Assembly (NCBI GenBank): GCA_052387815.1
Contig: JBQTIU010000022.1
Span: 15,428 to 79,427, forward strand
Origin: Pseudomonadota bacterium
GTDB lineage: Bacteria; Pseudomonadota; Alphaproteobacteria; CACIAM-22H2
DNA length: 64,000 bases
Direction: 5' to 3'
How positions within the stretch are numbered: the first letter of the stretch is position 1; the number at the start of each line of letters is the position of its first letter. Below the pieces are notes generated by a model that searched no databases, had not been told where the DNA came from, and saw only the letters and a program-made list of their open reading frames with translations. The translations under genes were made by a program, and so were the position numbers. Of the stretch, positions 12,612 to 62,840 are shown one piece after another.

Positions 12612-12928
12612 TCAGCGCCGCAGTTCCGGAAGCCCTATTGAACTCGGTGATCGCCTATTTCAATCCGCGCCGGGTGATCCTGTTCGGCTCCGCTGCGCGC
12701 GGCGCGGCGGGACCCGACAGCGACTATGACCTGGTGGTCGTACTCGACGACGACGTGCCGCCGGAGCGATTGAGCTGGCGGGCGAGCTACGAGGCGCGGC
12801 GCGACTGGCACCGTGCGGTGGACATCCTCCAGTGTCGGGAAACGACCTTCCGCGAGCGATCCCGCATCGTCGGCTCGCTCGCCCACAGCGTCGCTACCGA
12901 GGGCGTCATCGTCTATGAGCGCACCTGA
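12608..12928 (+). CDS. Minimal nucleotidyltransferase (MNT) partner of a HEPN/MNT module
   Basis: ILFGSAARGAAGPDSDYDLVVVL (GS...DxD nucleotidyltransferase motif), 106 aa. Confidence 0.8.
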   Translation: MISAAVPEALLNSVIAYFNPRRVILFGSAARGAAGPDSDYDLVVVLDDDVPPERLSWRASYEARRDWHRAVDILQCRETTFRERSRIVGSLAHSVATEGVIVYERT

Positions 12929-13337: not shown

Positions 13338-13517
13338 CCGCGGAGAATCAATCGCATGGCCATCGTCAACAAGGATCGCATCAGCCGCGGGCCGGAGCTG
13401 CTGCGCCAAGGGCTGACGCCCTTGATCGAACGGCAGCTCGAGGCGCGACTCGGCGCCAACGGGGTGAAGCGCGCCCTCGAGCTCATCCTCGAGACCGCGG
13501 CGGGCTCGAACACCCAA

Positions 13518-13686
13518 GGGCGGCGCCGGCCTCGAGGAGCTTGGCGCCGCGGGCGTTCAAGACCACGCGCGCGCCGCCGAGCTGCGGGGCAAAGGGATCG
13601 CGGCGGTGTTCCTCGCCTCCGACGCGGCGGCTTACGTCAACGGCCACACGCTGGTGGTCGACGGTGGCGTCACCGTGGCGCTGTAG
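13518..13686 (+). pseudogene. Scrambled remnant of a second copy of the 11377..12144 SDR gene
   Basis: 13521..13577 is the reverse complement of SDR nt ~11472..11535. 13578..13603 matches SDR nt ~11536..11562 in direct orientation. 13604..13686 matches the SDR 3' end 12062..12144 including the TAG stop. No intact reading frame. Confidence 0.6.
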
Positions 13687-13778
13687 AGCCCTCGGGGGCG
13701 AGATCGTCCTCGATGAAGGCGTTGATGATCGCGTCGATCGAGGCGTCCGCCTCGAACCCCATCGCGCGCGCGCGCCGC
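13600..13778. repeat. Right copy of the ~180 bp direct duplication (SDR remnant 3' end plus intact epimerase 3' end)
   Basis: See left copy 12059..12235. Identity breaks at ~12235/13778. Confidence 0.7.
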
Positions 13779-14668
13779 GAATCGAGCCGGCCCGGCCAGC
13801 CGTCGACGATGTTCTGGATGCGCGGATCGATTTCCCACTGGATGCGCCCGTAGGCGGCCGCGCCGGCGACCCGCCGCAGGCCCTCGGCCATCTCGGCCAC
13901 CGACAGATCGAGCGAGGGCAGCATCAGCGTCCGCCAGCTGCCCCAGGCCGCTTGCGGCAGGTCGTGGGCGCGGATGAATGCCGCAATTGTCCGGCGCGGG
14001 CTCAACAGCGGCATCATCGAAGTGGGCTTGACCGGACAGACGGCGGTCTTGCCCATCAGCGGCTCGCGGATGATCGAGGAAGCGAAGGTCGAGGCGGCGG
14101 GGTTGGGCTTGCCCGGGCGGACCACGATGGTCGGCAGGCGCAAGCACCGCCCGTCGATGAAGCCCTTGCGGGAATAGTCGGCGATCAGCAGTTCGCCCAT
14201 CGCCTTATGGGCGCCGTAGGAGGTCTGGGGGGTGAGCTTGTGGCCGTCGGCGATGACCTCGGGCAGCTCGCCCCCGAACACCGCGACCGAGGAGGCGAAC
14301 ACCAACCGCGGCGGCGAGCCCAGCGCGCGGCAGGCCTCGAGGACGGCGCGCGTGCCGTCGAGATTGACGCGGTAGCCGAGATCGAAATCGGCCTCGGCGC
14401 CGGCGCTCACCACCGCCGCGAAGTGGAACACGGCCCCGGTGTCGGCCGAGATCACGCGTTTCATCAATTGGGCGTCGTCGATCTCGCCGGCGACGAAGGT
14501 GAGCCGGCGGTCGGCCGGCAGGTCGCTCGCCGCGACGTTGTCGAACAGGACCAGGCGAGCGATGGCTCGCGGCTTCCCGTCCGGCCCGGCGAGGCCGCCC
14601 CGCTTCAAGAGCTCGCGCGCCAGCTTCTTGCCCAGCATCCCGGCGCCACCGGTGATCACGACCTGCAT
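13670..14668 (-). CDS. NAD-dependent epimerase/dehydratase-family oxidoreductase (DenD-like sugar-acid dehydrogenase family)
   Basis: MQVVITGGAGMLGKKLAREL (Rossmann GxxGxxG), YGAHKAMGE (YxxxK), 332 aa. Confidence 0.85.
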   Translation of the reverse strand: MQVVITGGAGMLGKKLARELLKRGGLAGPDGKPRAIARLVLFDNVAASDLPADRRLTFVAGEIDDAQLMKRVISADTGAVFHFAAVVSAGAEADFDLGYRVNLDGTRAVLEACRALGSPPRLVFASSVAVFGGELPEVIADGHKLTPQTSYGAHKAMGELLIADYSRKGFIDGRCLRLPTIVVRPGKPNPAASTFASSIIREPLMGKTAVCPVKPTSMMPLLSPRRTIAAFIRAHDLPQAAWGSWRTLMLPSLDLSVAEMAEGLRRVAGAAAYGRIQWEIDPRIQNIVDGWPGRLDSRRARAMGFEADASIDAIINAFIEDDLAPEGSTAPR

Positions 14669-28627: not shown

Positions 28628-29122
28628 ATGAACGAGATGATCGAAGAAAAGACGGTCTACGCGGAAGCCATCACCGAGTTCCCGAGCGGCTTCCATCAGA
28701 TGCTCGGCTACCGGATCATGGAATGGACCGATGGCGCGGCGACGCTGGCGCTCACCGTCGGCCCGCGGCACCTGAACCGCGGCGGGGTGTTGCATAGCGG
28801 CGTGCTTGCCACCCTGATCGGCACGGCGGGCGCCTATGCCGGCTGCTACTGCCCCCATGCCGAGCGCGCCCGGCGGGTCGCCGCCATCTCGTTGTCGGTC
28901 CAGTTCGTCGCCCCGCCGAAGAGCGGCGCCGTCCTCGCCCGCGCCAAGGTTCGCGGCGGCGCCAAGAAAATGTACATTGCCTCGGCCGAGGTGCACGACA
29001 CGGCGGGCACGCTGCTGGCGGTAGGCGAGGTCGTTTACCGCTACCAGGCGGGCAGCGAGACGACCGAAGGCGTGCCGCTCGGGCAAGAAGGCGGCGAAAA
29101 GCGCAACACTTCCTTGGGCTAA
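28628..29122 (+). CDS. PaaI/4HBT-family hotdog-fold thioesterase
   Basis: MLGYRIMEWTDGAATLALTVGPRHLNRGGVLHSGVLATLIGTAGA, 164 aa. Confidence 0.8.
   Translation: MNEMIEEKTVYAEAITEFPSGFHQMLGYRIMEWTDGAATLALTVGPRHLNRGGVLHSGVLATLIGTAGAYAGCYCPHAERARRVAAISLSVQFVAPPKSGAVLARAKVRGGAKKMYIASAEVHDTAGTLLAVGEVVYRYQAGSETTEGVPLGQEGGEKRNTSLG
28941..29122 (+). repeat. Left copy of a ~185 bp direct duplication (3' end of the thioesterase gene)
   Basis: 28941..29122 aligns with 39605..39789 with a handful of substitutions and one extra A in the right copy; both copies end exactly at the stop codon. Confidence 0.75.
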
Positions 29123-29234: not shown

Positions 29235-29805
29235 TAGCGGCCTGGCCGCCGCGAGGATCGCTTGGCGCCAGGCTCAGCCGACGCTTGATCCCGCCCGGCT
29301 CGTCTTCCTCGACGAAACCGGAGTGACCACCAACATGGCGTGACGCTATGGGCGGGCGCCGCGCGGCCGGCGGCTGGGATGCTCCGTTCGCCGCGGCCCC
29401 TGGAAAACCACGACGTTCGGCGCCGCCCTGCGCCAGGATGGCATCGCCGCTCCTTGCGTCTTCGATGGACCGATCAACGGCGATGCTTTCCGCGCCTATA
29501 TCCAGCAGTGCCTGGCGCCGACCCTGAGGCCGGGCGACACTGTGATCATGGACAATTTCGGCAGCCACAAAGTCGCCGGCGTCCGGGAAACCATCGAGAG
29601 TGGCGGCGCGACACTATGGTTCCTGCCGCCCTACAGTCCCGACCTCAACTCGATCGAGCAGGCCTTCGCCAAGCTCAAAGCCATCCTGCACAAAGCCGCT
29701 GCCAGAACCCTCGACACCCTCACCACAGCCATCGCCGTCGCCCTCGACCACTTCCCAACATCCGAGTGCGCCGTATACCTCGAAAACTCAGGATATGTTC
29801 CAATC
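29235..29805 (+). mobile_element. IS630-family transposase gene remnant: DDE C-terminal half only, with an in-frame TGA
   Basis: ...LDPARLVFLDETGVTTNMA*RYGRAPRGRRL...GPWKTTTFGAALRQDG...VIMDNFGSHKVAGVRETIESGGATLWFLPPYSPDLNSIEQAFAKLKAILHKAAART...ECAVYLENSGY is a canonical IS630 DDE region. The codon at 29341..29343 is TGA where family members have Arg. No N-terminal HTH part. Confidence 0.7.
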
Positions 29806-29826
29806 AACCGAAAAACGCTCCAGGCG

Positions 29827-30100
29827 GCTCGCCCAATCCATCACCACAACCAAATAGAGAAAGCCGCGCGCCATCGGGATGCAAGTAATGTCCGCCGCCC
29901 ACACCTGGTTCACCCGCTCGATCGCGAGCCCGCCCAAGAGGTAGGGATAAACCTTGTGATTCCCCGCCGGCGCGCCGATCGCCGCACGACAGCGTCTCAT
30001 CGCTTCGCGATGAGACGCTCCCACAGCCGCTCGAACCCCAGCGCTGGCCCGATGCGCCGTGTCGCGGTCTTCGTCGCCGTGTCGTTGTCGAGCGCGCCCA
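29827..30100 (-). mobile_element. IS3-family transposase OrfB (integrase core N-terminal part) remnant
   Basis: Minus-strand ...REAMRRCRAAIGAPAGNHKVYPYLLGGLAIERVNQVWAADITCIPMARGFLYLVVVMDWASR matches the IS3-family OrfB block (HKTYPYLLRGL...NQVW..DITYIPM..GFLYLV..MDW.SR). Homology stops abruptly at ~29827, where the IS630 fragment abuts on the other strand. Confidence 0.6.
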
Positions 30101-30447
30101 GCACCATCGTCTTGTCGGCGAAGCGCGCCCGAGCGCCGCAGCCGTTCCAGTTGTCCGCTCGCCTGCAGCTCTTCCCACCGCCCGAGCGTGGCGATCACCC
30201 GTTGGCGGACCTGCCGCCCGGTGCGCACGCTCCCCACGATCGGCAAGTAGGCGCGCCCGCCGGAGTCCTCTTGCGGAAGTACAACGGTGCCTCCGTGTGG
30301 TGCGCACGGAATCACCGAACACAACGCCGAAATCAGCAAAAATAAAGCACCGACGTGGCACTATAAATTCAGCCCCTTCCACCCTCGCCTCTCAACCTAT
30401 CAAGGGGTTACGCCATGCCACCCGTCGGGAACCGATGAAGATGGGTG

Positions 30448-37469: not shown

Positions 37470-39122
37470 CTAGCGGGCGTGCTTGCGGTCGGCCGCGCGG
37501 CGGCCGATGACGATGTCCCTGAGCGGTCCCTTCTGGATCTTGCCGGTCGGGGTCCGCGGCAGCTCGCTCATCAGCTCCAGGAATTCGGGCAGCTTGTAGG
37601 TCGCGATGCGCGGCCGCAGGAAGTCGTTGATCTCGTCGAAGGTGATCGTCTGCCCGGCCTTGGGCACGATGCAGGCGCAGGTGCGCTCGCCCAGCCGCGG
37701 ATCGGGCAGCCCGACCACGGCGGCGTCCATCACCTTGGGGTGCTGGTAGAGCACCTCCTCGATCTCCCGCGGATAGATATTGGCTCCGCCGCGGATGATC
37801 ATCTCCTTCTTGCGCCCCGCGATCCGTAGATAGCCCTTTTCGTCGAACACGCCGAGATCGCCGGTGCGGAACCAGCCGTCCTTGGTGAAGCTGCGCCGGT
37901 TGACGTCGGGATTGTTGTAATAGCCGATGGTGACTGAGGGTCCGTAGGTCAGGATTTCGCCGACCGTCCCCGGCGGGCACTCGACGCCGTTGTCGTCGAC
38001 CACCTTGTTCCGCATCGCGGGCAGCGAGCGTCCGACCAGCCCGCACACGGATTCCGGGTGCTCCGAGAGCCGCGTATGCGCCTGCGAGCCGCATTCGAGC
38101 ATGCCGTACATCTCCAGGAGATGGCCGGGGATCCGGGCACGAATCTCGCGGATCACCTCGATCGGACAGGACGCCCCGCCGGTCATCATCACCTGGAGCG
38201 AACGGAGATCGTACTTGCCGAAGTCGGGCGCGTGGAGCAGCGACACCAGGTGCGCCGGCGCACAGCAGAAATGCGTCACCTTCTCCTTCTGGATCAGCTC
38301 CAGCGCCCGCTCGGCCCTGAAGATGTCGAGGAGCACTACGGTGCACCCGGCGAAGATCGCCTGCAGCACGTTGAACAGGCCCCAGTTCAGGCCGACCGGC
38401 AGGAAGATCAGGAACACGCTGTTCGACGTGATCGCCTGGCCTTCGTTGAGGAAGCGGCCCGCGCAATTCGTGGTGTTGTGCAGGTGGAGCACGGCTTTGG
38501 GGTCGCCCGTCGTGCCCGAGGTGAAGGCGGCCCGCACCAGGTCGTTGCCGTGCGGCCGGCGGCGGCGCAGCTCCGCCTCCGGCACCGCGAGCGGTGCGTC
38601 GTGGTCGAGGAAGCCCCTCAGATCGAAGGCGTCCTCCGGCACGGCGTCGCCAACGAACATCACGTGCTTCAGCGCCGGCAGGCGCGGCCGCAGCTCGCGG
38701 ATCATCGCCGGGTAGTCGAACCGGCGGAACCCGCTCGGCGCGATCACCGCTGAGGCGCGCGTGAAGCCGAGGATGAACTCGACCTCGCGGGCGCGGAAAT
38801 CGCTGTGGTACTGGCAGAACGGCACCCCGGCCATCATCGCCGCGTTGATCGCAACCACGAACTCGCTCCAGTTCGGCAGCTGGATCGCGATCACGTCGTC
38901 GGCGGTCAGGCCGAGCTTGACGAAATGCGCCGCCAGACGCTGGGCGCGGCGGTGAAGCTCGGCATAGGTCAACCGGCAGCGGCCGTCGATCACCGCGATC
39001 TTGTCCGGGGTGCTCGCCGCGACGCGATCGAGTTCCTCGTTGCTGGTCGTCTGGACCCAGTACCCGGCGCGCTCGAACTCGCGCATGCGCTCGGGCGGGA
39101 TCTGGGGGTCGTCTATCCGCAC
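37470..39122 (-). CDS. AMP-dependent synthetase/ligase (acyl-/aryl-CoA ligase)
   Basis: TSGTTGDPKAV AMP-binding motif, YGMLECG, GWFRTGDLG, PRTPTGKIQK; 550 aa. Confidence 0.85.
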   Translation of the reverse strand: MRIDDPQIPPERMREFERAGYWVQTTSNEELDRVAASTPDKIAVIDGRCRLTYAELHRRAQRLAAHFVKLGLTADDVIAIQLPNWSEFVVAINAAMMAGVPFCQYHSDFRAREVEFILGFTRASAVIAPSGFRRFDYPAMIRELRPRLPALKHVMFVGDAVPEDAFDLRGFLDHDAPLAVPEAELRRRRPHGNDLVRAAFTSGTTGDPKAVLHLHNTTNCAGRFLNEGQAITSNSVFLIFLPVGLNWGLFNVLQAIFAGCTVVLLDIFRAERALELIQKEKVTHFCCAPAHLVSLLHAPDFGKYDLRSLQVMMTGGASCPIEVIREIRARIPGHLLEMYGMLECGSQAHTRLSEHPESVCGLVGRSLPAMRNKVVDDNGVECPPGTVGEILTYGPSVTIGYYNNPDVNRRSFTKDGWFRTGDLGVFDEKGYLRIAGRKKEMIIRGGANIYPREIEEVLYQHPKVMDAAVVGLPDPRLGERTCACIVPKAGQTITFDEINDFLRPRIATYKLPEFLELMSELPRTPTGKIQKGPLRDIVIGRRAADRKHAR

Positions 39123-39336
39123 TCGGTGTTCCCTCCCGCCGCGATCAGGTAGACCGCGCCGCGGCCGCGAACCCTCGCCTGGCGTCTGATCGGTCAGTTA
39201 GCATTCGCCGGTCTTTCCCGTCAAGGACGGGCGGTCGGCCGCTCCGCCCCGTGCGATCCGCACCCGCGTCGGTCCCGGCGCGCGAGCGATCGGACGGTCG
39301 CGGATCCCGGCGGCGCCGGGGGATGACCGTCGCCGC

Positions 39337-39604: not shown

Positions 39605-39789
39605 CGCGCCAAGGTCCGCGGCGGCGCCAAGAAAAAATGTACATCGCCTCGGCCGAGGTGCACGACACGGCGGGCACGCTGCTGGCGGTAGGCGAGGTCG
39701 TCTACCGCTACCGGGCGGGCAGCGAGACGACCAAAGGCGTGCCGCTCGGGGAAGAAAGCGGCGAAAAGCGCAACACTTCCTTGGGCTAG
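39605..39789 (+). pseudogene. Right copy of the thioesterase 3' end (gene fragment; direct repeat of 28941..29122)
   Basis: ...KMYIASAEVHDTAGTLLAVGEVVYRYRAGSETTKGVPLGEESGEKRNTSLG*; an extra A (AAAAAA vs AAAAA) shifts the frame relative to the intact copy; no 5' part. Confidence 0.75.
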
Positions 39790-39815
39790 CCGGCCCTTCG
39801 GGCTCTTAGGGAGGC

Positions 39816-40607
39816 CTAGCGCCCCTTGAACACCGGTTTGCGCTTGGCGAGGAAAGCGCGGGTGCCTTCCCGAAAATCCTCGGTATCGAAGCAAGCATAG
39901 CCCTCTTCGAGCTCGCGCCCCGTGAGCGGGCGCGGGTCGGCGAGGCGGCGCGCGAATTTCTTGTGCCAGCGATTGCACAAGGGCGCGCCGTCGGCGATGC
40001 GGCGGGCGGCGGCATAGGTCTCCTTCACGACCTCGGCGTCGGGGACGACGCGGTTGACCAGGCCTTTCTCCTTGGCCTCGGCGGCGCCGAACACGCGGCC
40101 CTCGAGCAGGATTTCGAGCGCCGCGGCGCGGCCCACGAGGTCGATGAACGCCTCGAGCTCCGGGTAGGCCATGATCACGCCGATGCGGTTGATCGGCACG
40201 CCGAAGCGCGACGATTGGCCGGCGATGCGCAGGTCGCACATGCTCGCCAGCTCCAGGCCCCCGCCCACGCACAGCCCGTGGATCATCGCCACGCTGGGGT
40301 GGCGGCAATCGCGGAGCGCGTGCATGGCCGCATGCATCAGCTTGCCGTAGGCCGCCGCCTGCCGGGGGTCGTTGCGCATGGTCTCGAACTCGGCGATGTC
40401 GGCCCCCGGCGCGAATGCCTTCTCCCCCGCGCCGCGCAGCACGATGCAACCGACCCGGTCCTCGCGCTCCAGCCCCCGGATGACCTCGCCCAGCCGCTTC
40501 CACATCGGCGCGTTGAGCGCGTTGAGCTTGTCCGGGCGATTGAGCGTCACGGTGACGATGTCGGCGTCGCGCTCGACCAGGATGACGTCGCTCTCCGCCG
40601 CCGGCAT
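39816..40607 (-). CDS. Enoyl-CoA hydratase/isomerase (crotonase) family protein
   Basis: LNRPDKLNAL..., crotonase-fold motifs, 263 aa. Confidence 0.85.
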   Translation of the reverse strand: MPAAESDVILVERDADIVTVTLNRPDKLNALNAPMWKRLGEVIRGLEREDRVGCIVLRGAGEKAFAPGADIAEFETMRNDPRQAAAYGKLMHAAMHALRDCRHPSVAMIHGLCVGGGLELASMCDLRIAGQSSRFGVPINRIGVIMAYPELEAFIDLVGRAAALEILLEGRVFGAAEAKEKGLVNRVVPDAEVVKETYAAARRIADGAPLCNRWHKKFARRLADPRPLTGRELEEGYACFDTEDFREGTRAFLAKRKPVFKGR

Positions 40608-53053: not shown

Positions 53054-53146
53054 CGCCCGCCCCTCCGCTTCGGGTCTCGCCGGCCCCCGGAGGACCGGCC
53101 AAGCCCCATGCCCGGGGCATGATAGCATCGGGATCCGTGGTTGCAT

Positions 53147-53160
53147 TTGATGCAGATCAA
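53147..53160. promoter_or_regulatory. FNR/FixK/CRP-family dimer site TTGAT-N4-ATCAA
   Basis: TTGATGCAGATCAA, a perfect match to the anaerobox consensus, centred ~100 bp upstream of the uspA ATG (minus strand) and ~80 bp upstream of manC (plus strand). Confidence 0.5.
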
Positions 53161-53233
53161 GCCATGGCGGTTGGCGGCGCCCGCCTTTTGCGGTAGCAAG
53201 ACATGGGGTGCGGCTTTCGTGGGGTGCGCGGTC

Positions 53234-54667
53234 ATGGAGAGTCCGATCTATCCGGTGATCCTGTCCGGAGGCGCGGGCACGCGCCTGTGGCCGCTGTCAC
53301 GCGAGCTCTATCCCAAGCAGCTTCTGCCGCTCACCTCGGAGCTGAGCCTGTTGCAGGAGACCGCGCGCCGGGTCGCCGGGCCGGCCTACGGGCCGCCCTT
53401 GATCGTGTGCAATGACGAGCACCGATTCATCATCGCCGAGCAGCTGCGCGAGCTCGGCCTCGCCGCGCCAATGATCGTGCTCGAGCCGGTGGCGCGCAAC
53501 ACCGCCCCGGCCGCCGCCGCCGCCGCCATGCTGGCGGGCCGCGAGCCCGGCGCGCTCATGCTGGTGCTGCCCTCCGACCATGCGATCGGCGATCAGGCGG
53601 CATTCGGCCGGGCGGTCGCGACCGCCGCGGCGGCGGCGCGAACCGGCCGACTGGTCGCCTTCGGCATCGCTCCCACCCGGCCGGAGACGGGGTACGGCTA
53701 CATCCGCCGCGGCCGCGCCCTCGACGGCGTCGCCGGCGCCTATGGGATCGAGCGCTTCGTCGAGAAACCCGACCTCGAGACCGCCCGATCCTTCCTTGCC
53801 GATGGCGCCCCCGGCGATCTCAGGTGGTCCTGGAACAGCGGCATGTTCCTGTTCCCCGTCGCTCTGTTCCTCGCCGAGCTCGGGCGCTTCGAGCCCGAGC
53901 TGGCGGCGGCGGTCCGCGAGGCCTGCGCGAACAGCGCGCGCGACCTCGATTTCATCCGCCTCGACAAGGAAAGCTTGGCGCGCGCGCCGGCGAAATCGAT
54001 CGACTATGCGGTGATGGAGCGGACCGCGGCAGCGGCGGTGGTGCCGGCCGACCTCGAGTGGAGCGACGTCGGCGCGTGGTCCGCGCTGTGGGAGCTCGGC
54101 CGCCGCGACGAAGCCGGCAACGTCAAGATCGGCGACGTGATGGCCGAGGCGACGACGAATTCCTATCTGCGCAGCGAACGCTCGTTGTTGGCGGCGGTCG
54201 GGCTCGACGAGGTGATCGTCGTCGCCACCGCCGACGTCGTCCTCGCCGCCGCCAAGGACCGCGCCCAGGACGTGAAAAAGATCGTCGATCGCCTCAAGGC
54301 GGCGGGCCGCAGCGAGGCGGTCTCGCACCCCATCGTTTACCGGCCGTGGGGCAGCTACCGGACCATCGACAGCGGGGAGCGCTTCCAGGTCAAGCGGATC
54401 ACCGTCAACCCCGGCGCCAAACTCTCGTTGCAGAAGCACGCGCACCGCGCCGAGCATTGGGTGGTGGTGCGCGGCACGGCGCGGGTGGTGCGCGGGAACG
54501 AGACGATGACGCTCGGCGAGAACATGTCGATCCATATCCCCGGGGGCTCCGTCCACCGGCTGGAAAACCCCGGGCCCGGGCCGCTCGAGGTCATCGAGGT
54601 GCAGTCCGGCCACTATCTCGGCGAGGACGACATCGTCCGCCTCGAGGACAGCTACGGGCGGGCGTGA
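53234..54667 (+). CDS. manC: Mannose-1-phosphate guanylyltransferase / mannose-6-phosphate isomerase (bifunctional, type II PMI)
   Basis: MESPIYPVILSGGAGTRLWPLSR..., C-terminal cupin (QKHAHRAEHWVVVRGTA), 477 aa from ATG 53234. Confidence 0.9.
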   Translation: MESPIYPVILSGGAGTRLWPLSRELYPKQLLPLTSELSLLQETARRVAGPAYGPPLIVCNDEHRFIIAEQLRELGLAAPMIVLEPVARNTAPAAAAAAMLAGREPGALMLVLPSDHAIGDQAAFGRAVATAAAAARTGRLVAFGIAPTRPETGYGYIRRGRALDGVAGAYGIERFVEKPDLETARSFLADGAPGDLRWSWNSGMFLFPVALFLAELGRFEPELAAAVREACANSARDLDFIRLDKESLARAPAKSIDYAVMERTAAAAVVPADLEWSDVGAWSALWELGRRDEAGNVKIGDVMAEATTNSYLRSERSLLAAVGLDEVIVVATADVVLAAAKDRAQDVKKIVDRLKAAGRSEAVSHPIVYRPWGSYRTIDSGERFQVKRITVNPGAKLSLQKHAHRAEHWVVVRGTARVVRGNETMTLGENMSIHIPGGSVHRLENPGPGPLEVIEVQSGHYLGEDDIVRLEDSYGRA

Positions 54668-54703
54668 CCCGCGCCCGGCGGCAGCCGGTGCCGTGCGTCA
54701 AGC

Positions 54704-55210
54704 ATGATCGGCAAAACCTACGACGTGCTATTCCTTTGCACCGGCAACTCGGCGCGCAGCATTATGGCCGAGGCGCTGATGACCCACTGGGGCCGAGGCC
54801 GGTTCCGCGGCCATAGCGCCGGCAGCTTCCCCAAGGGCACCGTCCATCCCATCGCGCTCGCGCTCTTGGCCGAGCGGGGCCTGCCGAGCGCGGGGCTCAG
54901 GAGCAAGAGCTGGGAGGAGTTCGCGAGGCCGGGCGCGCCGGCGATGGACTTCGTCCTCACGGTTTGCGACCGGGCCGCGGGCGAAGTCTGCCCGGTGTGG
55001 CCAGGCCGCCCGGCGAGCGCCCATTGGGGCGTCCCCGATCCGGCCGCGCTCGAGGGCACCGAAGCCGAGAGGCGGCAGGCGTTCCGGGGCGCGTACGCGG
55101 CGCTCGAGCGCCGCATCCGGATGCTCGCCGGGCTTGGCGTCGATGGGCTGGAGCGGGCGGCGCTCGAGCGCGCGCTGGCGAGGATCGGTGGAACCAGGAG
55201 CTTCCGGTGA
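54704..55210 (+). CDS. arsC: Low-molecular-weight phosphatase-family arsenate reductase (thioredoxin-coupled ArsC type)
   Basis: LFLCTGNSARS P-loop (CX5R), second cysteine pair VCDRAAGEVCP, 168 aa. Confidence 0.7.
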   Translation: MIGKTYDVLFLCTGNSARSIMAEALMTHWGRGRFRGHSAGSFPKGTVHPIALALLAERGLPSAGLRSKSWEEFARPGAPAMDFVLTVCDRAAGEVCPVWPGRPASAHWGVPDPAALEGTEAERRQAFRGAYAALERRIRMLAGLGVDGLERAALERALARIGGTRSFR

Positions 55211-55389
55211 GCCAGCGCAAGGGGCGGGCATCGCTAGGGCGCTCTGGACAACGGCGCCCGCGCGCGGTTTACTGATCGCGAGGCCACCGCCGGCGGGGAG
55301 AAGCCGCACCATGGTTTCGCCCAGGAACGCCAGCGCTCGGCCGCCCGCGCCGGGACCGGGGCGGGCTCCGGATCAACAGGGAGGACGAT
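55211..55389 (+). promoter_or_regulatory. Conserved leader upstream of the first family-5 binding-protein paralogue (copy 1)
   Basis: Near-identical to 57036..57173 apart from a ~48-bp insertion; contains a 10-bp-stem hairpin GCCCGCGCCGGGACCGGGGCGGGC ~20 nt before the GGGAGG Shine-Dalgarno. Confidence 0.4.
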
Positions 55390-56991
55390 ATGCGATTCAA
55401 GAGTTTGACACTCGCCGCGGTGCTCGGCCTGGCGGCGACGGCGATGGTGTTCATCAGCGCGGCCGAGGCCAAGACGTTCCGCTTCGCCAATGACGGCGAC
55501 GTCGCTTCGATGGATCCCTACAACCGCAACGAGACGTTCCAGCTCGGCGTGATGTGGAACGTCTACGAGGGCCTGGTGCGCCGCGACCAGGACCTCAAAC
55601 TCGAAGGCGCGCTGGCCACCGAATGGAGCCAGGCTGCGCCCAACCTGTGGCGCTTCAAGCTGCGCCCCGGCGTCAAGTTCCACGACGGCACGCCGTTCAC
55701 CGCCGACGACGTGGTGTTGTCGATGACGCGGGCCAGCACGCCGCCCTCCAACATGACCGGCTATTTCGCCTCGGTCAAAGAGGTGCGCGCGGTCGATCCG
55801 CTGACCGTCGAGTTCGAGACCAAGGTCGTCGATCCGCTGCTCGACAGCAAGCTCAACGCCATCGGCATCATGTCGAAGGCGTGGGCCGAGAAGCACGGCG
55901 CGCAGAGGGCCACCGACGTGACCAAGCCGCAGGAGGAGAACTACTCCACCCGCAACGCCAACGGCACCGGGCCCTTCATGCTGAAGAGCCGCGAGCCCGA
56001 CGTGCGGACGGTGTTCGTCAAGAATCCGAACTGGTGGGACAAGGCGACGCACAACATCGACGAAGTCGTGTTCTCGCGCATCGCCAGCGACCCGACGCGC
56101 GTCGCCGCCCTGCTGTCGGGCGAGGTCGACATGATCTACACCGTGCCGCCGCAGGACACCGACCGCCTGAGCAAGACCCAAGGTATCAAGATCATGCAGG
56201 GCCCGGAGACGCGCGTCGTTTACCTGGGCTTCGACCAGGCCCGCGACGAACTGCTCGAATCCAACATCAAGGGCAAGAACCCGTTCAAGGACAAGCGTGT
56301 GCGCGAGGCGTTCTACCGCGCCATCGACATCGAGGCGATCAAGACCCGCGTCATGCGCGGCCAGGCCTTCCCGGTGGCGCTGATGGTGGCGCCGGGCATC
56401 AACGGCTACGCGAAGGACGTCGACGTGCGGCCGAAATACGATCCCGATGCCGCCAAGAAGCTGTTGGCCGATTCCGGCTATCCCGCCGGTTTCGAGGTCG
56501 GCATGGACTGCCCGAACGACCGCTACGTCAACGACGAGGCGATCTGCCTGGCGGTCGTCGCCATGCTGGCGCGCATCGGCGTCAAGGTCAACCTGCTGGC
56601 CCAGACGCGCAGCAAGTACTTCGCGAAGATCCTCGGCCCCGGCTATACCACCAGCTTCTACATGCTCGGCTGGTCGCCGGCCGCGACCTACGACGTGCAC
56701 AACGTCTTCGAGCAGCTATTGCAGACCCGGAACGCGCCGGCACGAAAAGGCGCATTCAACGTCGGCGGCTACTCGAACCCGCAGCTCGACGCGCTCACCA
56801 ACCGGATCGAGGAGGAGGCCGACAAGGCCAAACGCGACGCCATGATCCTCGCGGCGCACAAGATCTACACTGGCGACTTCGCCAACATCCCGCTGCACCA
56901 GCAGGCGCTGATCTGGGCGATGCGCAGCAACGTCGAGATGGTGCAACCGGCCGACAACTCGCTGCCGTTGCGCTACCTCAACGTCAAGTAG
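55390..56991 (+). CDS. ABC transporter substrate-binding protein, family 5 (paralogue 1)
   Basis: MRFKSLTLAAVLGLAATAMVFISAAEA signal, SBP_bac_5, 533 aa. Confidence 0.85.
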   Translation: MRFKSLTLAAVLGLAATAMVFISAAEAKTFRFANDGDVASMDPYNRNETFQLGVMWNVYEGLVRRDQDLKLEGALATEWSQAAPNLWRFKLRPGVKFHDGTPFTADDVVLSMTRASTPPSNMTGYFASVKEVRAVDPLTVEFETKVVDPLLDSKLNAIGIMSKAWAEKHGAQRATDVTKPQEENYSTRNANGTGPFMLKSREPDVRTVFVKNPNWWDKATHNIDEVVFSRIASDPTRVAALLSGEVDMIYTVPPQDTDRLSKTQGIKIMQGPETRVVYLGFDQARDELLESNIKGKNPFKDKRVREAFYRAIDIEAIKTRVMRGQAFPVALMVAPGINGYAKDVDVRPKYDPDAAKKLLADSGYPAGFEVGMDCPNDRYVNDEAICLAVVAMLARIGVKVNLLAQTRSKYFAKILGPGYTTSFYMLGWSPAATYDVHNVFEQLLQTRNAPARKGAFNVGGYSNPQLDALTNRIEEEADKAKRDAMILAAHKIYTGDFANIPLHQQALIWAMRSNVEMVQPADNSLPLRYLNVK

Positions 56992-57035
56992 ACTCGGGGG
57001 GTCCCGGCGCAGTCCGGGCCAAGCCCCGGGCCGCG

Positions 57036-57173
57036 GCCAGCGCAAGGGGCGGGCATCGCTGGGGCGCTCTGGACAACGGCGCCCGCATGCGGTTTACTGA
57101 TCGCGGGCCATCGTCGGCGCTCGGCCGCCCGCGCCGGGACCGGGGCGGGCTGCGGATCAACAGGGAGGACGAT
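57036..57173 (+). promoter_or_regulatory. Conserved leader upstream of the second family-5 binding-protein paralogue (copy 2)
   Basis: See 55211..55389; the same hairpin and Shine-Dalgarno are retained. Confidence 0.4.
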
Positions 57174-58760
57174 ATGCGATTCAAGGGCTGGACGGTCGCC
57201 GCGGTGCTCGGCCTGGCGGCGGCGGCGATGGTGCTCATCACGGCGGCCGAGGCCAAGCCCCTGCGCTGGTCGAGCCAGGGCGACATCCTGACCATGGATC
57301 CGCATGCGCAGAACGAGGGGCTGAACAACACCGTCTCGTCCTACATCTACGAGTCGCTGCTCACCCGCGACAAGGAGATGAAGCTCGAGCCGGCGCTCGC
57401 CGTGTCGTGGAGCCAGCCCGAGCCCAACCGCTGGCGCTTCGTCCTGCGCCAGGGTGTCAAGTTCCATGACGGCGCGCCGTTCACCGCCGACGACGTGGTG
57501 TTCACGGTCCAGCGCGCCATGGCGCCCACGTCGAACTTCAAGATCTACACCCAAGGCATGGCCGAGGCGCGCCGGGTGGACGAGCACACGGTCGATATCC
57601 TCACCAGCGGTCCGAACCCGGTTTTGCTGCAGCAGCTTCCCGAGCTGCGCCTCATGAACAAGGCGTGGGCCGAGAAGAACAACGCCACCCGGCCGCAGAA
57701 CTACGTCGAGAAGGAGGAGACCTACTCGGCACGCAACACCAACGGCACCGGCCCCTTCATGCTCCGCTCGCGCGAGCCGGACATCCGCACCGTGTTCGCC
57801 CACAATCCGAACTGGTGGGGCAAGCGCGAGGGCAACGTGACCGAGATCGTCTACCAGCCGATCAAGTCGGATGCCACGCGCGTCGCGGCACTGCTCACCG
57901 GCGAGATCGACTTCGTGCTCGACCCGCCGGTTCAGGATCTCGAGCGCCTGAGGCGCGGCGGCAACGTCAAGGTCGTCGAGGGCAACGAGAACCGTACCAT
58001 CTTCCTCGGCTTCGACCAGGCCCGCGACGAGCTGCTCTACTCCAACGTTAAGGGCAAGAACCCGTTCAAAGACTTGAGAGTGCGCCAGGCGGTCTATCAT
58101 GCCATCGACATCGAGGCGATCAAGAGCCGCATCATGCGCGGGCAGTCGCGGCCCAGCGGCTCGATCATCGCGCCGCAGGTGCACGGCTTCACGCCCGAGA
58201 ACGACATGCGCCCGCCGCTCGATCGCGCCAAGGCGCGCCAGCTCCTCGCCGAGGCGGGCTATCCCAGCGGCTTCGAGGTGACGCTTGACTGCCCGAACAA
58301 CCGCTATATCAACGACGAGGAGATCTGCCTGGCGATCACCGCCATGCTGGCCCAGGTCGGGATCCAGGCCAGGCTCAACGCCATGCCGCGGGCCACCTAC
58401 TTCCCGAAGATTCAGAAGTATGACACCAGCTTCTACCTGCTGGGTTGGGGCGTGCCGACCTTCGATGCGCTGTACACGCTCCAGAGCCTGGCGCGCACGG
58501 TCGGGCAGGGCGGCGACGGCAATTTCAACCTCGGCAAGTTCTCGAACGCCAAGTTCGATGCCCTGGTCGACCAGATCAAGACCGAGATCGACCAACCCAA
58601 GCGCGACAGGTTGATCGCCGAGGCGCTGAAGATTCACAACGCCGAGGTCGCCCACCTGCCGCTGCACCACCAGGTGATTCCGTGGGCGATGCGCGCCAAC
58701 GTCGAGGTCGTCCACCGGCCCGACAACCGGCTGGAGGCGCGCTGGGTCAAGATCAACTGA
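57174..58760 (+). CDS. ABC transporter substrate-binding protein, family 5 (paralogue 2)
   Basis: MRFKGWTVAAVLGLAAAAMVLITAAEA signal; roughly half the residues identical to paralogue 1 by eye; 528 aa. Confidence 0.85.
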   Translation: MRFKGWTVAAVLGLAAAAMVLITAAEAKPLRWSSQGDILTMDPHAQNEGLNNTVSSYIYESLLTRDKEMKLEPALAVSWSQPEPNRWRFVLRQGVKFHDGAPFTADDVVFTVQRAMAPTSNFKIYTQGMAEARRVDEHTVDILTSGPNPVLLQQLPELRLMNKAWAEKNNATRPQNYVEKEETYSARNTNGTGPFMLRSREPDIRTVFAHNPNWWGKREGNVTEIVYQPIKSDATRVAALLTGEIDFVLDPPVQDLERLRRGGNVKVVEGNENRTIFLGFDQARDELLYSNVKGKNPFKDLRVRQAVYHAIDIEAIKSRIMRGQSRPSGSIIAPQVHGFTPENDMRPPLDRAKARQLLAEAGYPSGFEVTLDCPNNRYINDEEICLAITAMLAQVGIQARLNAMPRATYFPKIQKYDTSFYLLGWGVPTFDALYTLQSLARTVGQGGDGNFNLGKFSNAKFDALVDQIKTEIDQPKRDRLIAEALKIHNAEVAHLPLHHQVIPWAMRANVEVVHRPDNRLEARWVKIN

Positions 58761-58852
58761 GCCGGACCGCCGGCCGGCCGGCGCCCCCGCCGGGTCCGGC
58801 CGGCGACGGCCCCGCCGCTTTGGACCCGCCCCTCCCGGGCCCCGAGCCTTAG

Positions 58853-59836
58853 ATGATCGCCTACATCGTCCACCGCCTCGTCCAGTCAGTCGGGGTCATG
58901 CTGGCGGTGGCTTTCGTCGCCTTCTCGCTGTTCGCCTACGTGGGCGATCCGATCACCATCATGCTCGGACAGGACTACAATGAAATCGACCGCGCGCGGC
59001 TGATGCGCGAGCTCGGTCTCGACCGGCCGTTCTTCGTCCAATACGCCTATTTCATCGGCAACGCGATCCAGGGCGATTTCGGCATCTCCTACCGCATGGC
59101 GGAAGCGGTCGGTCCGCTGATCCTCGGTCGGCTGCCGGCGACGCTCGAGCTCAGCTTCGTCGCCGCGACCCTGGCTTTGATCGTCGGCGTGCCGATGGGC
59201 GTCTATACCGGACTCTACCCGAAGCGCTGGCTGAGCCGCGTGTTCCTCACCGTGTCGCTGATCGGCATATCGCTGCCGACCTTCCTGATCGGCATCCTGC
59301 TGATCCTGATCTTCGCCGTGCTGCTGGGCTGGTTGCCGTCGTTCGGCCGCGGCGAGGTGGTGCGTCTCGGCTGGTGGTCCACCGGGTTCCTCACCGCCAG
59401 CGGCCTCAAGGCGCTGATCCTGCCGTCGATCACGCTGGGGCTGTTCCAGATGACCCTGATCATGCGCCTGGTGCGCTCCGAGATGCTCGAGGTCATGCGC
59501 ACTGACTACATCAAGTTCGCGCGCGCCCGCGGCCTCGCCAACCGCGCCATCCATTTCGGCCACGCGCTCAAGAACACGCTGGTGCCGGTGATCACCATCA
59601 CCGGGCTACAGCTCGGCGCGATCATCGCCTTCGCCATCATCACCGAGACGGTGTTCAGTTGGCCGGGCATGGGCCTGTTGTTCATCCAGTCGGTGCAGTT
59701 CGCCGACATCCCGGTGATGTCCGCCTACCTGGTGCTGATCGGCTTCCTGTTCGTGGTCATCAACCTGTCGGTCGATCTACTCTACTTCGCGGTCGATCCG
59801 CGGCTGCGCCTCGATCGCGACGTGAAGGGCCTATGA
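58853..59836 (+). CDS. ABC transporter permease (DppB type)
   Basis: MIAYIVHRLVQSVGVMLAVAFVAFSLF..., 327 aa. Confidence 0.85.
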   Translation: MIAYIVHRLVQSVGVMLAVAFVAFSLFAYVGDPITIMLGQDYNEIDRARLMRELGLDRPFFVQYAYFIGNAIQGDFGISYRMAEAVGPLILGRLPATLELSFVAATLALIVGVPMGVYTGLYPKRWLSRVFLTVSLIGISLPTFLIGILLILIFAVLLGWLPSFGRGEVVRLGWWSTGFLTASGLKALILPSITLGLFQMTLIMRLVRSEMLEVMRTDYIKFARARGLANRAIHFGHALKNTLVPVITITGLQLGAIIAFAIITETVFSWPGMGLLFIQSVQFADIPVMSAYLVLIGFLFVVINLSVDLLYFAVDPRLRLDRDVKGL

Positions 59837-60768
59837 GCGCGGCCGCACTGCGCGTCCTCGACGGTCTGCGGCGCGCCGCCGACAGCGACATCTTCTACAG
59901 CTTCCGCCGCTCGCCGGCGGTGGTCGCCGCCGCCATCCTCACCGCGGCCTTTTTTCTGGCGGCGCTGCTGGCGCCGTGGGTGGCGCCGCACAACCCCTTC
60001 GACCTCGCCTCACTGGATCTCCTCGACGCCTTCGCGCCGCCCGCCTGGGTCGAGGGCGGCAGCCGGCGCTTTGTGCTCGGCGCCGACGACCAGGGCCGCG
60101 ACGTGCTGTCCACCATCATCTACGGCTCGCGCATCTCGCTGATGATCGGGTTCGCCGCGGTGCTGTTCGCCATGGTGCTCGGCATCGGCCTCGGCTTGGT
60201 CGCCGGTTATGCCGGCGGCGTCCTCGATGCCGTGATCATGCGCGTCGCCGACGTGCAATTGTCGTTCCCGGCGATCCTCATCGCGCTGTTGATCGACGGC
60301 GTCGTCCGCGGGCTGATCGCCCACGAGCACCGGGCCGACGTCGCCATCCTCGTCCTCGTGCTGTCGATCGGCCTGTCGTTCTGGGTGCAGTACGCGCGCA
60401 CGGTGCGCGGCTCGGTGATGGTCGAGAAGAACAAGGAGTACGTCCAGGCGGCGCGGGTGATCGGCATCCACCCGCTGCTGATCGCGGTCCGGCACGTGCT
60501 GCCGAACGTGATGGGCCCGGTGCTGGTCATCGCCACCATCAACTTGGCGCTCGCCATCATCGTCGAGGCGACGCTGTCGTTCCTGGGCGTCGGCGTGCCG
60601 CCGACCCGGCCGTCCTTGGGCACGCTGATCCGCATCGGCAACGACTTCCTGTTCTCGGGCGAATGGTGGATCACGGTGTTCCCCGGCGCGGCGCTCGCCC
60701 TGCTGGTGCTCGCGGTCAACCTGCTCGGCGATTGGCTGCGCGACGCCTTGAATCCCAAGCTCCGCTAG
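59833..60768 (+). CDS. ABC transporter permease (DppC type)
   Basis: ATG 59833 overlapping previous stop; DppC-like, 311 aa. Confidence 0.85.
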   Translation: MSAAALRVLDGLRRAADSDIFYSFRRSPAVVAAAILTAAFFLAALLAPWVAPHNPFDLASLDLLDAFAPPAWVEGGSRRFVLGADDQGRDVLSTIIYGSRISLMIGFAAVLFAMVLGIGLGLVAGYAGGVLDAVIMRVADVQLSFPAILIALLIDGVVRGLIAHEHRADVAILVLVLSIGLSFWVQYARTVRGSVMVEKNKEYVQAARVIGIHPLLIAVRHVLPNVMGPVLVIATINLALAIIVEATLSFLGVGVPPTRPSLGTLIRIGNDFLFSGEWWITVFPGAALALLVLAVNLLGDWLRDALNPKLR

Positions 60769-60769
60769 G

Positions 60770-61772
<1,003 letters not shown>

Positions 61773-61780
<8 letters not shown>

Positions 61781-62840
61781 GAAGCGGCCGCTGCTCAAGG
61801 TCGCGGACCTGCGGCGCTACTTCGATGTCTCGCCGCCGCTGCTCAGCCGCCTGATCGCAGGCACCGGCCGCCGGATCGTCAAGGCGGTCGACGGCATCAG
61901 CTTCGCCATCGAGCGGGGCGAGACCTTCGCCCTGGTCGGCGAATCGGGCTGCGGCAAGTCGACGGTCGCGCGCCTCGTCGTCGGCCTCTACGCGCCGAGC
62001 GGCGGCCGCGTCGAGTTCGCCGGCGTCGATCTTGGCCGGCTGCGCGGCCGGGCCGCGCGCGCGCCCTACCAGGCGCGCATGCAGATGATCTTCCAGGACC
62101 CCTACGCCTCGCTCAACCCGCGCTGGCGCGTCGCCGACATCGTCGCCGAGCCGCTGACGGCGCGCCGCCTGGTGCAGGGCCGCCGGGCGATCGCCGATCG
62201 CGTCGGCGAGCTGCTGCGCCAAGTGCGCCTGTCTCCGGCCGACGGCGACAAGTACCCGCACGAGTTCTCCGGCGGCCAGCGCCAACGCATCTCGTTCGCC
62301 CGGGCGCTCGCTGGCCAGCCCGAATTCCTGGTCTGCGACGAGCCGACCTCGGCGCTCGATGTCTCGGTGCAGGCGCAGATCCTCAACCTGATGAAGGACC
62401 TGCAGCGCCAGCTCGGCCTCACCTACCTGTTCATCTCGCACAACCTGGCCGTCGTCTACCACGTCTCGACCACGATCGGCGTGATGTACCTCGGCCGCCT
62501 GGTCGAGTGGGCCGACACCCGCACCCTGTTCGCCGATCCCTCGCATCCCTATACGCGGATGCTGCTCGACACCATTCCCGACCTGTCGATGAGCGGGGCC
62601 GACCGCGCGCCGGTGGCCGGCGAGGTGCCGAGCCCGATCGACCCGCCGGCGGGCTGCGCCTTCCATCCGCGCTGCCCGTTGGCCGCCGAGCGCTGCCGGC
62701 GCGAGCGGCCGGAGCTGATCGAGACCGGCCCCCGCCGCGTCGCCTGCCACGCGGTCGCCGAAGGCCGCCTGCCGGCGTGGCAAGGGGGAGCGCGCCTGAC
62801 GGGCGCGCGCCAGACGCTTTCGCCTCCGGAAATCTGCTAG
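61773..62840 (+). CDS. ABC transporter ATP-binding protein (DppF/OppF type)
   Basis: [24 protein letters not shown], start ATG 61773 overlapping the previous gene by 8 nt. Confidence 0.9.

What the first reader, a model, noticed from the sequence alone, without database searches (positions are those of the whole stretch)
55211..57173. Leader duplicated in front of two paralogous binding-protein genes is much better conserved than the genes
The ~140-180 bp upstream regions of the two family-5 binding-protein genes are roughly 90% identical at nucleotide level by eye, whereas the proteins share only about half their residues. The region includes a 10-bp-stem hairpin and the Shine-Dalgarno. Copy 1 has an extra ~48 bp. 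Differential conservation of a non-coding leader after an old tandem duplication argues for a functional cis element (attenuator, small-RNA or riboswitch-like target, or regulator site), or for recent gene conversion limited to the leader.
Basis: seen in the sequence. Interest (0 to 1): 0.5.

Follow-up and report, generated by a model that had tools for sequence, protein, structure and literature searches.

The report
Recently copied leader-plus-signal-peptide cassette
Two very different binding-protein genes of one ABC transporter operon carry near-identical upstream regions and signal peptides because that 5' piece was copied recently in this lineage, not because it is an anciently conserved regulatory RNA; this is an ordinary product of operon reshuffling.

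Summary
Window 55211-55473 and 57036-57257 are about 93% identical (201 of 216 aligned nt) with one 41-nt indel. The rest of the two family-5 binding-protein genes is 65% identical in DNA and 51% in protein.

No Rfam family matches, folding is no better than shuffled sequence, and no terminator was found. No third copy was found in the window, plasmids, genome or metagenome collections.

Orthologues show the tract is young. SBP1 and SBP2 belong to two old orthologue groups. Relatives 77-87% identical in protein carry them as single genes, with unrelated leaders and signal peptides.

The two nearest relatives of the permease gene have an SBP1-type gene directly in front of it. The 44 nt after SBP1 resembles that ancestral intergenic region. 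The first ~180 nt of the permease gene has a different ancestry (corrected p about 0.045).

Best reading: an SBP2-type block was spliced in behind SBP1, downstream of a duplicated copy of the operon's own 5' region. It is probably functional as promoter, ribosome-binding site and export signal, but similarity reflects recency. Low interest.

The parts
54704..55210 (+). Upstream gene for a low-molecular-weight phosphatase / ArsC-like protein. Its stop codon (55208-55210) abuts the first base of repeat copy 1.
   Evidence: PF01451, E 8.5e-17; sequence.
55211..55473 (+). Repeat copy 1 (263 nt). It covers the whole 179-nt intergenic leader plus codons 1-28 of SBP1 (signal peptide MRFKSLTLAAVLGLAATAMVFISAAEA|K).
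   Evidence: Alignment; identity profile.
55245..55273 (+). Possible sigma-70-like promoter, TGGACA-17 nt-TTTACT. It matches 9 of 12 consensus positions but lacks the A at -10 position 2. Its twin lies at 57070-57098. It overlaps the dyad GGGCGC-N11-GCGCCC. Inference only.
   Evidence: Read. The consensus scan found no promoter. Identical in both copies.
55295..55334 (+). 40 nt present only in copy 1 (plus one A at 55281, making the 41-nt indel). It is flanked by the imperfect direct repeat CGCCGGC / CGCCAGC, which is consistent with a slippage deletion in copy 2.
   Evidence: sequence.
55343..55366 (+). Interrupted 9-10-bp GC hairpin, 13 nt upstream of the Shine-Dalgarno GGAGG (55380-55384). 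No U-tract follows it.
55390..56991 (+). SBP1, a 'type-1' family-5 solute-binding protein. It is 87% identical to the single SBP of L001 and 77% to that of L003.
56992..57035 (+). 44-nt spacer. It is probably a remnant of the ancestral SBP1-permease intergenic hairpin. The duplication/insertion junction lies at 57035|57036.
   Evidence: The blastn match between L013 5-316 and window 56719-57033 (83.6%) runs 42 nt past the stop codon; alignment.
57036..57257 (+). Repeat copy 2 (222 nt). It comprises the leader (57036-57173) plus codons 1-28 of SBP2. Its hairpin is at 57127-57150.
57174..58760 (+). SBP2, a 'type-2' family-5 solute-binding protein. It is 81% identical to the single SBP of L002 and 77-80% to those of L004 and L012. 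The mature part begins at 57258.
58853..59836 (+). Permease 1. Its first ~160-195 nt (to about 59010-59048) show type-2-like or foreign ancestry. The rest is sister to L013, which is a type-1 operon.
   Evidence: breakpoint p 0.007, permutation-corrected 0.045; identity matrices.
59833..62840 (+). Permease 2 (59833-60768) and the two ATPases (60770-61780, 61749-62840). This single translocon is shared by both SBPs.

Best explanation
The two near-identical segments are young copies of one 5' cassette: the operon's upstream region, ribosome-binding site and Sec signal peptide. They arose in this lineage when an SBP2-type gene was brought into an SBP1-type transporter operon.

Shown:
- The tract is bounded sharply by a non-homologous junction at its 5' end and by the signal-peptidase-site codons at its 3' end.
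- It unites the two paralogues of this genome, while the mature parts group with orthologues in other genomes.
- The closest relatives have SBP1 directly followed by the permease gene.

Inferred, as the most economical order of events:
1. A tandem duplication of the 1,825-bp unit 55211-57035 (leader, SBP1 and 44 nt of intergenic sequence).
2. Replacement of the second copy from the signal-peptide cleavage codons to about codon 55-65 of permease 1 by DNA from a type-2 operon. The crossovers would lie at the GCGGCCGAGGCCAAG motif, which is identical in the two window copies and L001 and near-identical in L002-L004, and inside the conserved permease gene.

Consequence, also inferred: both binding proteins are translated from the same ribosome-binding site, exported by the same signal peptide, and probably driven by the same promoter/operator, so they feed one translocon under common control. 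The leader looks 'better conserved than the genes' because it is younger, about 5-7% diverged, not because it has been held constant.
For: 1. Tract anatomy. Identity is 67/70, 59/62 and 75/84 nt, then drops to 65% immediately after AAG (Lys28). Four-fold sites are 14/15 identical inside the tract against 67% outside.

2. Contrast with orthologues. Between SBP1 and SBP2 the signal-peptide part is 89% identical in nt and the mature part 65%. For SBP1 vs its L001 orthologue the figures are 56% and 83%. For SBP2 vs L002 they are 60% and 81%. None of about 60 listed homologues has this signal peptide.

3. Leaders of L001-L004 are unalignable to the window leader.

4. Types 1 and 2 each occur as the single SBP of an SBP-permease-permease-ATPase-ATPase operon. 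The window's membrane and ATPase genes are closest to L001. The nearest permease-1 relative, L013 (90% aa), has an SBP1-type 3' end (79% to SBP1 vs 45% to SBP2) 60 nt upstream of the permease gene.

5. The 44-nt spacer aligns with the L013 intergenic region.

6. Permease 1 nt 1-180: window-L013 is 77%, lower than L013-L001 at 82%. For nt 181-990: window-L013 is 88%, higher than L013-L001 at 81%. Informative sites run 1222222 then mostly 1, corrected p 0.045.

7. Control. A tandem SBP pair in L011 that is 84% identical in protein shows no leader similarity. The usual pattern is therefore the opposite of what is seen here.

8. Two other inserts in the same window are flanked by 155-180-nt direct repeats of 96-97% identity. 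Such duplication-associated insertions recur in this genome.
Against: - The direction of copying and the order of events are not resolved. No relative close enough to retain the leader was found, since the best SBP hits are 87% and 82% identical.
- The permease mosaic rests on 34 informative sites and is only marginally significant (corrected p 0.045).
- Homology of the 44-nt spacer to the L013 intergenic region is modest, about 67-73% in GC-rich sequence.
- Non-coding divergence (6/132) is somewhat lower than divergence in the signal-peptide codons (9/81; Fisher p 0.10). Some constraint on the leader is therefore possible.
- The rest of the source genome could not be searched. It is an NCBI metagenome-assembled genome (MAG), and the two proteins are MGQ0662912.1 and MGQ0662913.1. 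Further leader copies there cannot be excluded.
Confidence: 0.72

Rival explanations
1. The leader is a functional cis-regulatory element (structured 5' UTR, attenuator, riboswitch, sRNA target or repressor operator). Purifying selection has kept it constant since an old tandem duplication, while the coding regions diverged.
For: - Both copies keep the hairpin, the Shine-Dalgarno sequence and a dyad that overlaps a -35-like hexamer.
- The non-coding part is slightly less diverged than the signal-peptide codons (6/132 vs 9/81, p 0.10).
Against: - No Rfam match.
- Folding is no more stable than shuffled sequence.
- No terminator or antiterminator was found.
- The leader is absent from all orthologous leaders examined, although the SBP1/SBP2 split predates those lineages.
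- High identity extends through synonymous sites of the signal peptide and ends at a protein-domain boundary.
- A 41-nt indel sits in the middle of the leader.
- With only two nearly identical copies there is no covariation.
Confidence: 0.08
2. Classical gene conversion. The two SBP genes have long been tandem neighbours with homologous leaders, and a recent non-reciprocal homologous exchange homogenised only the 5' 220-260 bp.
For: - It produces the same sharp island of identity.
- The 3' edge lies in a 15-nt motif that is identical in the two window copies and L001 and near-identical in L002-L004, and that could end a conversion tract.
Against: - There is no homology at all on the 5' side of the tract, where an ArsC-like gene end faces an SBP1-downstream hairpin. 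Two-ended homologous repair therefore has nothing to pair with.
- None of the relatives examined has the SBP1-SBP2 tandem, and the nearest ones have SBP1 directly before the permease gene.
- The permease 5' end also looks imported.
Confidence: 0.12
3. Assembly artefact. The contig strings together two strain variants of one locus (an SBP1 allele and an SBP2 allele), so the shared 5' region appears twice.
For: - The source is a metagenome-assembled genome.
- The two copies differ by a strain-like ~5-7%.
- Two other repeat-flanked inserts occur in the same window.
Against: - The junction at 57035|57036 joins the SBP1 downstream hairpin to the first base of the leader. Neither putative strain would contain that link.
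- All genes are intact and in frame.
- The 41-nt indel and the scattered substitutions are ordinary divergence.
Confidence: 0.05

Closest known systems
Staphylococcus aureus lpl tandem lipoprotein paralogues (Tsuru & Kobayashi 2008, PMC2568036)
   Same: In tandem paralogues of secreted or lipoproteins, the unit that stays together during recombination spans the intergenic region plus the 5' end of the downstream ORF. It is not the ORF itself (abstract read).
   Different: In lpl, many copies recombine at a central conserved region, and the conserved unit also includes the 3' end of the upstream ORF. Here there are only two genes from different orthologue groups. The shared unit is the leader plus signal peptide only, and one boundary is a non-homologous junction.
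Borrelia burgdorferi oppA1-oppA2-oppA3 in front of oppBCDF (PMC7822543)
   Same: Several family-5 binding-protein genes sit in tandem ahead of one translocon. The second gene is expressed both by read-through and from its own internal promoter (passage read).
   Different: In Borrelia the internal promoters are experimentally shown and are not reported as copies of the first. Here a promoter is only inferred, and the upstream regions are near-identical copies.
Families with a conserved 5' UTR and signal peptide but variable mature protein, e.g. Mycoplasma vlp/vsa and Borrelia erp/mlp upstream homology boxes (from my own knowledge, not checked here)
   Same: Expression and export signals are shared as a block among otherwise divergent paralogues, and are maintained by recombination.
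   Different: Those are multi-copy antigenic-variation systems of pathogens. This is a two-copy transporter operon in an environmental alphaproteobacterium-like MAG, with no sign of switching.
Homology-facilitated illegitimate recombination (de Vries & Wackernagel 2002; from my own knowledge, not checked here)
   Same: The foreign segment is anchored on one side by homologous recombination (here inside permease 1) and joined on the other side at a short microhomology or a non-homologous point.
   Different: This is a mechanism inferred from sequence mosaicism only. Nothing is known about transformation in the source organism.

Membership tests
Curated cis-regulatory RNA family (riboswitch, leader, attenuator; Rfam) | Match to a covariance model at or near its gathering score | tested here: not met
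   There were no hits at gathering score over the whole window. With E<=10 on 54900-57500, the best hit was aspS RNA at 18.9 bits against a 42.5-bit cut-off, E 5.4.
Curated cis-regulatory RNA family (riboswitch, leader, attenuator; Rfam) | Conservation of the leader upstream of orthologous genes in other taxa, with covariation | tested here: not met
   The upstream regions of L001-L004 are unalignable to the window leader. The 38-nt pattern gave no hit in the genome collection. The 21-nt pattern gave only chance hits inside unrelated sequence, in both the genome and metagenome collections.
Curated cis-regulatory RNA family (riboswitch, leader, attenuator; Rfam) | Structure more stable than composition predicts, or a terminator/antiterminator alternative | tested here: not met
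   Folding z-scores are -0.26 and -0.56. No intrinsic terminator was found in 54600-59000.
Recent segmental duplication / concerted evolution of paralogue 5' ends | An island of near-identity with sharp edges inside otherwise diverged paralogues, including silent sites | tested here: met
   201/216 nt are identical inside the tract against 65% outside. Four-fold sites are 14/15 identical inside against 67% outside. In the coding part, permutation gives p 0.013 for a 27-codon window as good as the first one.
Recent segmental duplication / concerted evolution of paralogue 5' ends | Phylogenetic incongruence: the tract groups the paralogues of one genome, while the rest groups each with its orthologues | tested here: met
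   Signal-peptide part: 89% between the paralogues against 56-60% to orthologues. Mature part: 65% between the paralogues against 81-83% to orthologues.
Classical homologous gene conversion | Homologous sequence flanking the converted tract on both sides | tested here: not met
   There is no similarity upstream of 55211 / 57036. Homology exists only on the 3' side.
Multi-SBP ABC importer operon with an internal promoter before the second SBP | Two or more SBP genes ahead of a single permease/ATPase set | tested here: met
   The Pfam series is SBP_bac_5, SBP_bac_5, BPD_transp_1, ABC_tran+oligo_HPY twice. The second permease (59833-60768) was not scanned against Pfam; it is 83% identical to the L001 permease 2.
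Multi-SBP ABC importer operon with an internal promoter before the second SBP | A functional promoter in the SBP1-SBP2 intergenic region | not testable with these tools
   There is only a 9/12 consensus match, TGGACA-17-TTTACT, at 57070-57098, read. The scan reported none. This needs 5'-end mapping or a reporter.
Mosaic operon made by import of a homeologous block | A recombination breakpoint in the flanking conserved gene | tested here: inconclusive
   Permease 1 has a breakpoint between nt 158 and 196, uncorrected p 0.007 and permutation-corrected p 0.045. The identity ranking reverses between nt 1-180 and nt 181-990.

The most novel reading that the evidence does not exclude
The ~220-260-bp cassette is a portable 'plug-in' module. 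By duplicating its own promoter, 5' UTR and signal peptide in front of a foreign binding-protein gene, the operon recruited a new substrate specificity under identical control. The two direct repeats contain perfect runs of about 33 nt, read. They would also allow RecA-mediated loop-out or amplification of SBP1, which would leave an in-frame leader-signal peptide-SBP2 gene and so act as a reversible specificity switch in the population. The three repeat-flanked inserts in this one window would then reflect a general insertion mode that duplicates long stretches of the target.
Probability: 0.1. Interest if true: 0.5.

Novelty: new member of a known kind. Interest (0 to 1): 0.2.

Why it matters
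This is a clean worked example of how 'non-coding DNA better conserved than the adjacent genes' can mislead. Within a single genome, that pattern signals a young copy rather than functional constraint. Comparison with orthologues is what separates the two explanations.

Biologically, it shows one way an ABC importer gains a second binding protein. A foreign mature domain is grafted behind the operon's own expression and export signals, and the graft point is the signal-peptidase site. That is useful for annotators and for people who engineer binding-protein swaps. It does not open a new class of regulation.

Tried and rejected
- Rfam at gathering score on the whole window, and at E<=10 on 54900-57500, gave nothing usable.
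- RNA folding of both leaders and of the 44-nt spacer gave z-scores between -0.2 and -0.6.
- The promoter and terminator consensus scan found none.
- A search for further copies found only the two known ones:
  - 21- and 24-nt sub-blocks with up to 3 mismatches in the window.
  - Low-stringency blastn of both leaders, and tblastn of both signal peptides, against the window.
  - A 38-nt pattern in genome contigs gave no hits.
  - A 21-nt pattern in genome contigs and metagenome contigs gave six hits, all chance, mostly inside coding sequence, with no flanking similarity.
  - Distant blastn against plasmids gave no match.
- The source contig could not be fetched. Exact look-ups of SBP1 failed twice, so the rest of the metagenome-assembled genome (MAG) was not searched.
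- A 29-nt, 90% match to the hairpin region at 39255-39282 (minus strand), upstream of an acyl-CoA synthetase gene, was examined and set aside as probable GC-rich chance similarity. The motifs there are in a different order and sit upstream of that gene's own CTTGAC promoter.
- NG86 dS values are saturated and biased at this GC content. Paralogues give 0.56 and orthologues 0.7-0.8. I therefore relied on raw identity at four-fold sites.
- Deciding which copy was the donor from signal-peptide similarity to orthologues gave only a weak hint: MRFKS also starts one type-1 homologue, P0020.
- The SBP2-permease intergenic region shows no convincing similarity to type-2 operons.
Full report
WHAT IS THERE

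The finding lies at the head of an ABC importer operon. Two family-5 solute-binding protein genes come first: SBP1 at 55390-56991 and SBP2 at 57174-58760. They are followed by two permease genes (58853-59836, 59833-60768) and two ATPase genes with oligo_HPY tails (60770-61780, 61749-62840). The gene upstream is a low-molecular-weight phosphatase / ArsC-like gene that ends at 55210. The two binding proteins are 52% identical.

CHECKING THE OBSERVATION

The upstream regions really are near-identical.
- Positions 55211-55280 match 57036-57105 at 67/70.
- Positions 55328-55389 match 57112-57173 at 59/62.
- Copy 1 carries 41 extra nt between these blocks.
- The hairpin (55343-55366 / 57127-57150) and the GGAGG 5 nt before each ATG are present in both copies.
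- None of 100 shuffles of the window gave two matches to either sub-block.

First, the identity continues for 84 nt into the coding sequence. Codons 1-28, which are exactly the Sec signal peptide up to AEA|K, are 75/84 identical, with 14 of 15 four-fold sites the same. At the next codon identity falls to 65% in nt, 61% at third positions and 67% at four-fold sites, and it stays there for the remaining 500 codons. Second, the 5' edge is just as abrupt. There is no similarity upstream of 55211 or 57036, and copy 2 starts 44 nt after the SBP1 stop. The repeat is therefore 55211-55473 against 57036-57257, about 93% identical.

IS IT A CONSERVED REGULATORY RNA?

Nothing supports that.
- Rfam gives no hit at gathering score on the whole window. 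At E<=10 around the finding there are only two sub-threshold hits, and the only one inside a leader is aspS RNA at 18.9 bits, against a 42.5-bit cut-off.
- Both leaders fold no better than dinucleotide shuffles, with z-scores of -0.26 and -0.56.
- There is no intrinsic terminator, and the consensus scan found no promoter. By eye, TGGACA-17 nt-TTTACT at 55245-55273 / 57070-57098 is a weak candidate.
- No third copy exists in the 64-kb window at low stringency.
- A 38-nt pattern found nothing in the genome collection.
- A 21-nt core found six hits in the genome and metagenome collections. All were chance matches with no flanking similarity.
- The plasmid collection gave nothing.

WHAT ORTHOLOGUES SAY

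SBP1 and SBP2 belong to two different, old orthologue groups. The mature N-termini are TFRFANDGD in one group and TLRWSSQGD in the other. In relatives, each type is the single binding-protein gene of its own SBP-permease-permease-ATPase-ATPase operon.
- Type 1: L001 (87% to SBP1) and L003 (77%).
- Type 2: L002 (81% to SBP2), L004 and L012 (77-80%).

The upstream regions and signal peptides of those orthologues are unrelated to the window cassette. The contrast in numbers:

| Comparison | Signal-peptide part (nt identity) | Mature part (nt identity) |
|---|---|---|
| SBP1 vs SBP2 (this window) | 89% | 65% |
| SBP1 vs L001 orthologue | 56% | 83% |
| SBP2 vs L002 orthologue | 60% | 81% |

A leader held constant since the SBP1/SBP2 split would have to be present in these lineages, and it is not. 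The tract is therefore young and specific to this lineage.

As a control, a tandem SBP pair in L011 that is 84% identical in protein has no detectable leader similarity. The normal outcome of tandem duplication is thus the reverse of what is seen here.

HOW THE ARRANGEMENT AROSE

The window's permeases and ATPases are closest to those of L001, a type-1 operon. The closest permease-1 relative in 5.8 billion proteins is L013/L014, at 90% identity. It has an SBP1-type 3' end (79% to SBP1, 45% to SBP2) only 60 nt upstream of the permease gene. Its alignment to the window runs through the SBP1 stop and 42 nt into the 44-nt spacer. The ancestral order was therefore SBP1-intergenic-permease, and the spacer looks like what is left of that intergenic region.

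The start of permease 1 has a different history from the rest of the gene. In nt 1-180 the window is no longer sister to L013: window-L013 is 77%, while L013-L001 is 82%. In nt 181-990 it is sister: 88% against 81%. Sites that distinguish type-1 from type-2 operons read 1222222 and then mostly 1. The breakpoint falls between nt 158 and 196, with p 0.007, or 0.045 after permutation correction. This is suggestive, not conclusive.

Taken together, a type-2 block spanning about 57258 to 59010-59048 sits downstream of a second copy of the operon's own 5' region.

The most economical path (inference) has two steps. The first is a tandem duplication of the 1,825-bp unit 55211-57035. The second is replacement of the second copy's mature part, intergenic region and permease start by type-2 DNA. 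One crossover would lie at GCGGCCGAGGCCAAG, which is identical in the two window copies and L001 and near-identical in L002-L004. The other would lie inside the permease gene.

Classical gene conversion between long-standing neighbours is less likely, because the tract has no homologous flank on its 5' side and none of the relatives examined has the tandem. Which copy is the older one is not settled.

FUNCTION

By inference, the cassette gives both binding proteins the same ribosome-binding site and export signal. If the 179-nt intergenic region holds the operon promoter, it also gives them the same promoter and operator. This parallels the internal oppA2 promoter in the Borrelia opp operon (PMC7822543).

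The non-coding part is slightly less diverged than the signal-peptide codons (6/132 vs 9/81, p 0.10). Some constraint is therefore possible, but it is not needed to explain the pattern. The general phenomenon, in which the intergenic region plus the 5' end of the downstream ORF behaves as the evolutionary unit in tandem paralogues of exported proteins, is described for the S. aureus lpl genes (PMC2568036).

SEEN IN PASSING

The same window holds two more inserts bracketed by long, nearly identical direct repeats.
- A DUF433-nucleotidyltransferase-HEPN cassette lies between 175-nt repeats at 12057 and 13599.
- A 10.5-kb block lies between ~180-nt repeats at about 28945 and 39614, next to a DDE transposase remnant.

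Insertion with duplication of a long stretch of the target therefore seems to recur in this genome. That fits the reading given here.

VERDICT

The riboswitch/attenuator reading is not supported. This is a new instance of a known kind of event, and it is of low interest.

Noticed in passing
window 12057-12231 and 13599-13773 (insert 12232-13598): A 175-nt direct repeat, 97% identical, brackets a 1.37-kb block. The block encodes DUF433 (12405-12611), a nucleotidyltransferase (12608-12928) and a HEPN protein (12915-13337), which looks like a toxin-antitoxin-type cassette. It is preceded by two copies of AAGTGTTACCMATGTSCCCGG (12321, 12346). The repeat covers the 3' end of an SDR gene (11377-12144, +) and the 3' end of a convergent epimerase gene (13673-14668, -), so both flanking genes stay intact.
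   Followed up: partly
window c. 28945-29122 and 39614-39795: A ~180-nt direct repeat, 96% identical. Copy a is the 3' end of a 4HBT thioesterase gene (28628-29122). Copy b is an orphan fragment 10.7 kb away, between an acyl-CoA synthetase gene (37473-39122, -) and an enoyl-CoA hydratase gene (39819-40607, -). Just inside copy a lie three AATTGTCGY repeats (29137, 29194, 29217) and a truncated DDE_3 transposase ORF (29542-30345).
   Followed up: partly
window 39255-39282 (minus strand) and c. 39140-39160: A 29-nt, 90% match to the leader hairpin region, and a GGTCTACCTGATCGCG motif that resembles the leader's GGTTTACTGATCGCG. Both lie upstream of the acyl-CoA synthetase gene, but in the opposite order and around that gene's own CTTGAC-N17-CTAACT-like promoter. 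Probably chance in GC-rich DNA.
   Followed up: partly
L011 5217-8542: A tandem pair of type-1 SBP genes, 84% identical in protein, in another MAG. There are no adjacent permease or ATPase genes, so these are orphan binding proteins, and their leaders are unrelated to each other.
   Followed up: partly
window 53141-54664 and L002 13064-13587: A mannose-1-phosphate guanylyltransferase / isomerase (ManC-type) gene lies near the transporter operon both in the window (upstream, same strand) and in the type-2 relative L002 (downstream, opposite strand). This may be residual synteny or coincidence.
   Followed up: no
window 60770-61780 (ATPase 1): ATPase 1 is 81% identical to the type-1 L001 protein and 79% to the type-2 L002 protein, while L001 and L002 are only 72% identical to each other. 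The gene may therefore also be mosaic.
   Followed up: no
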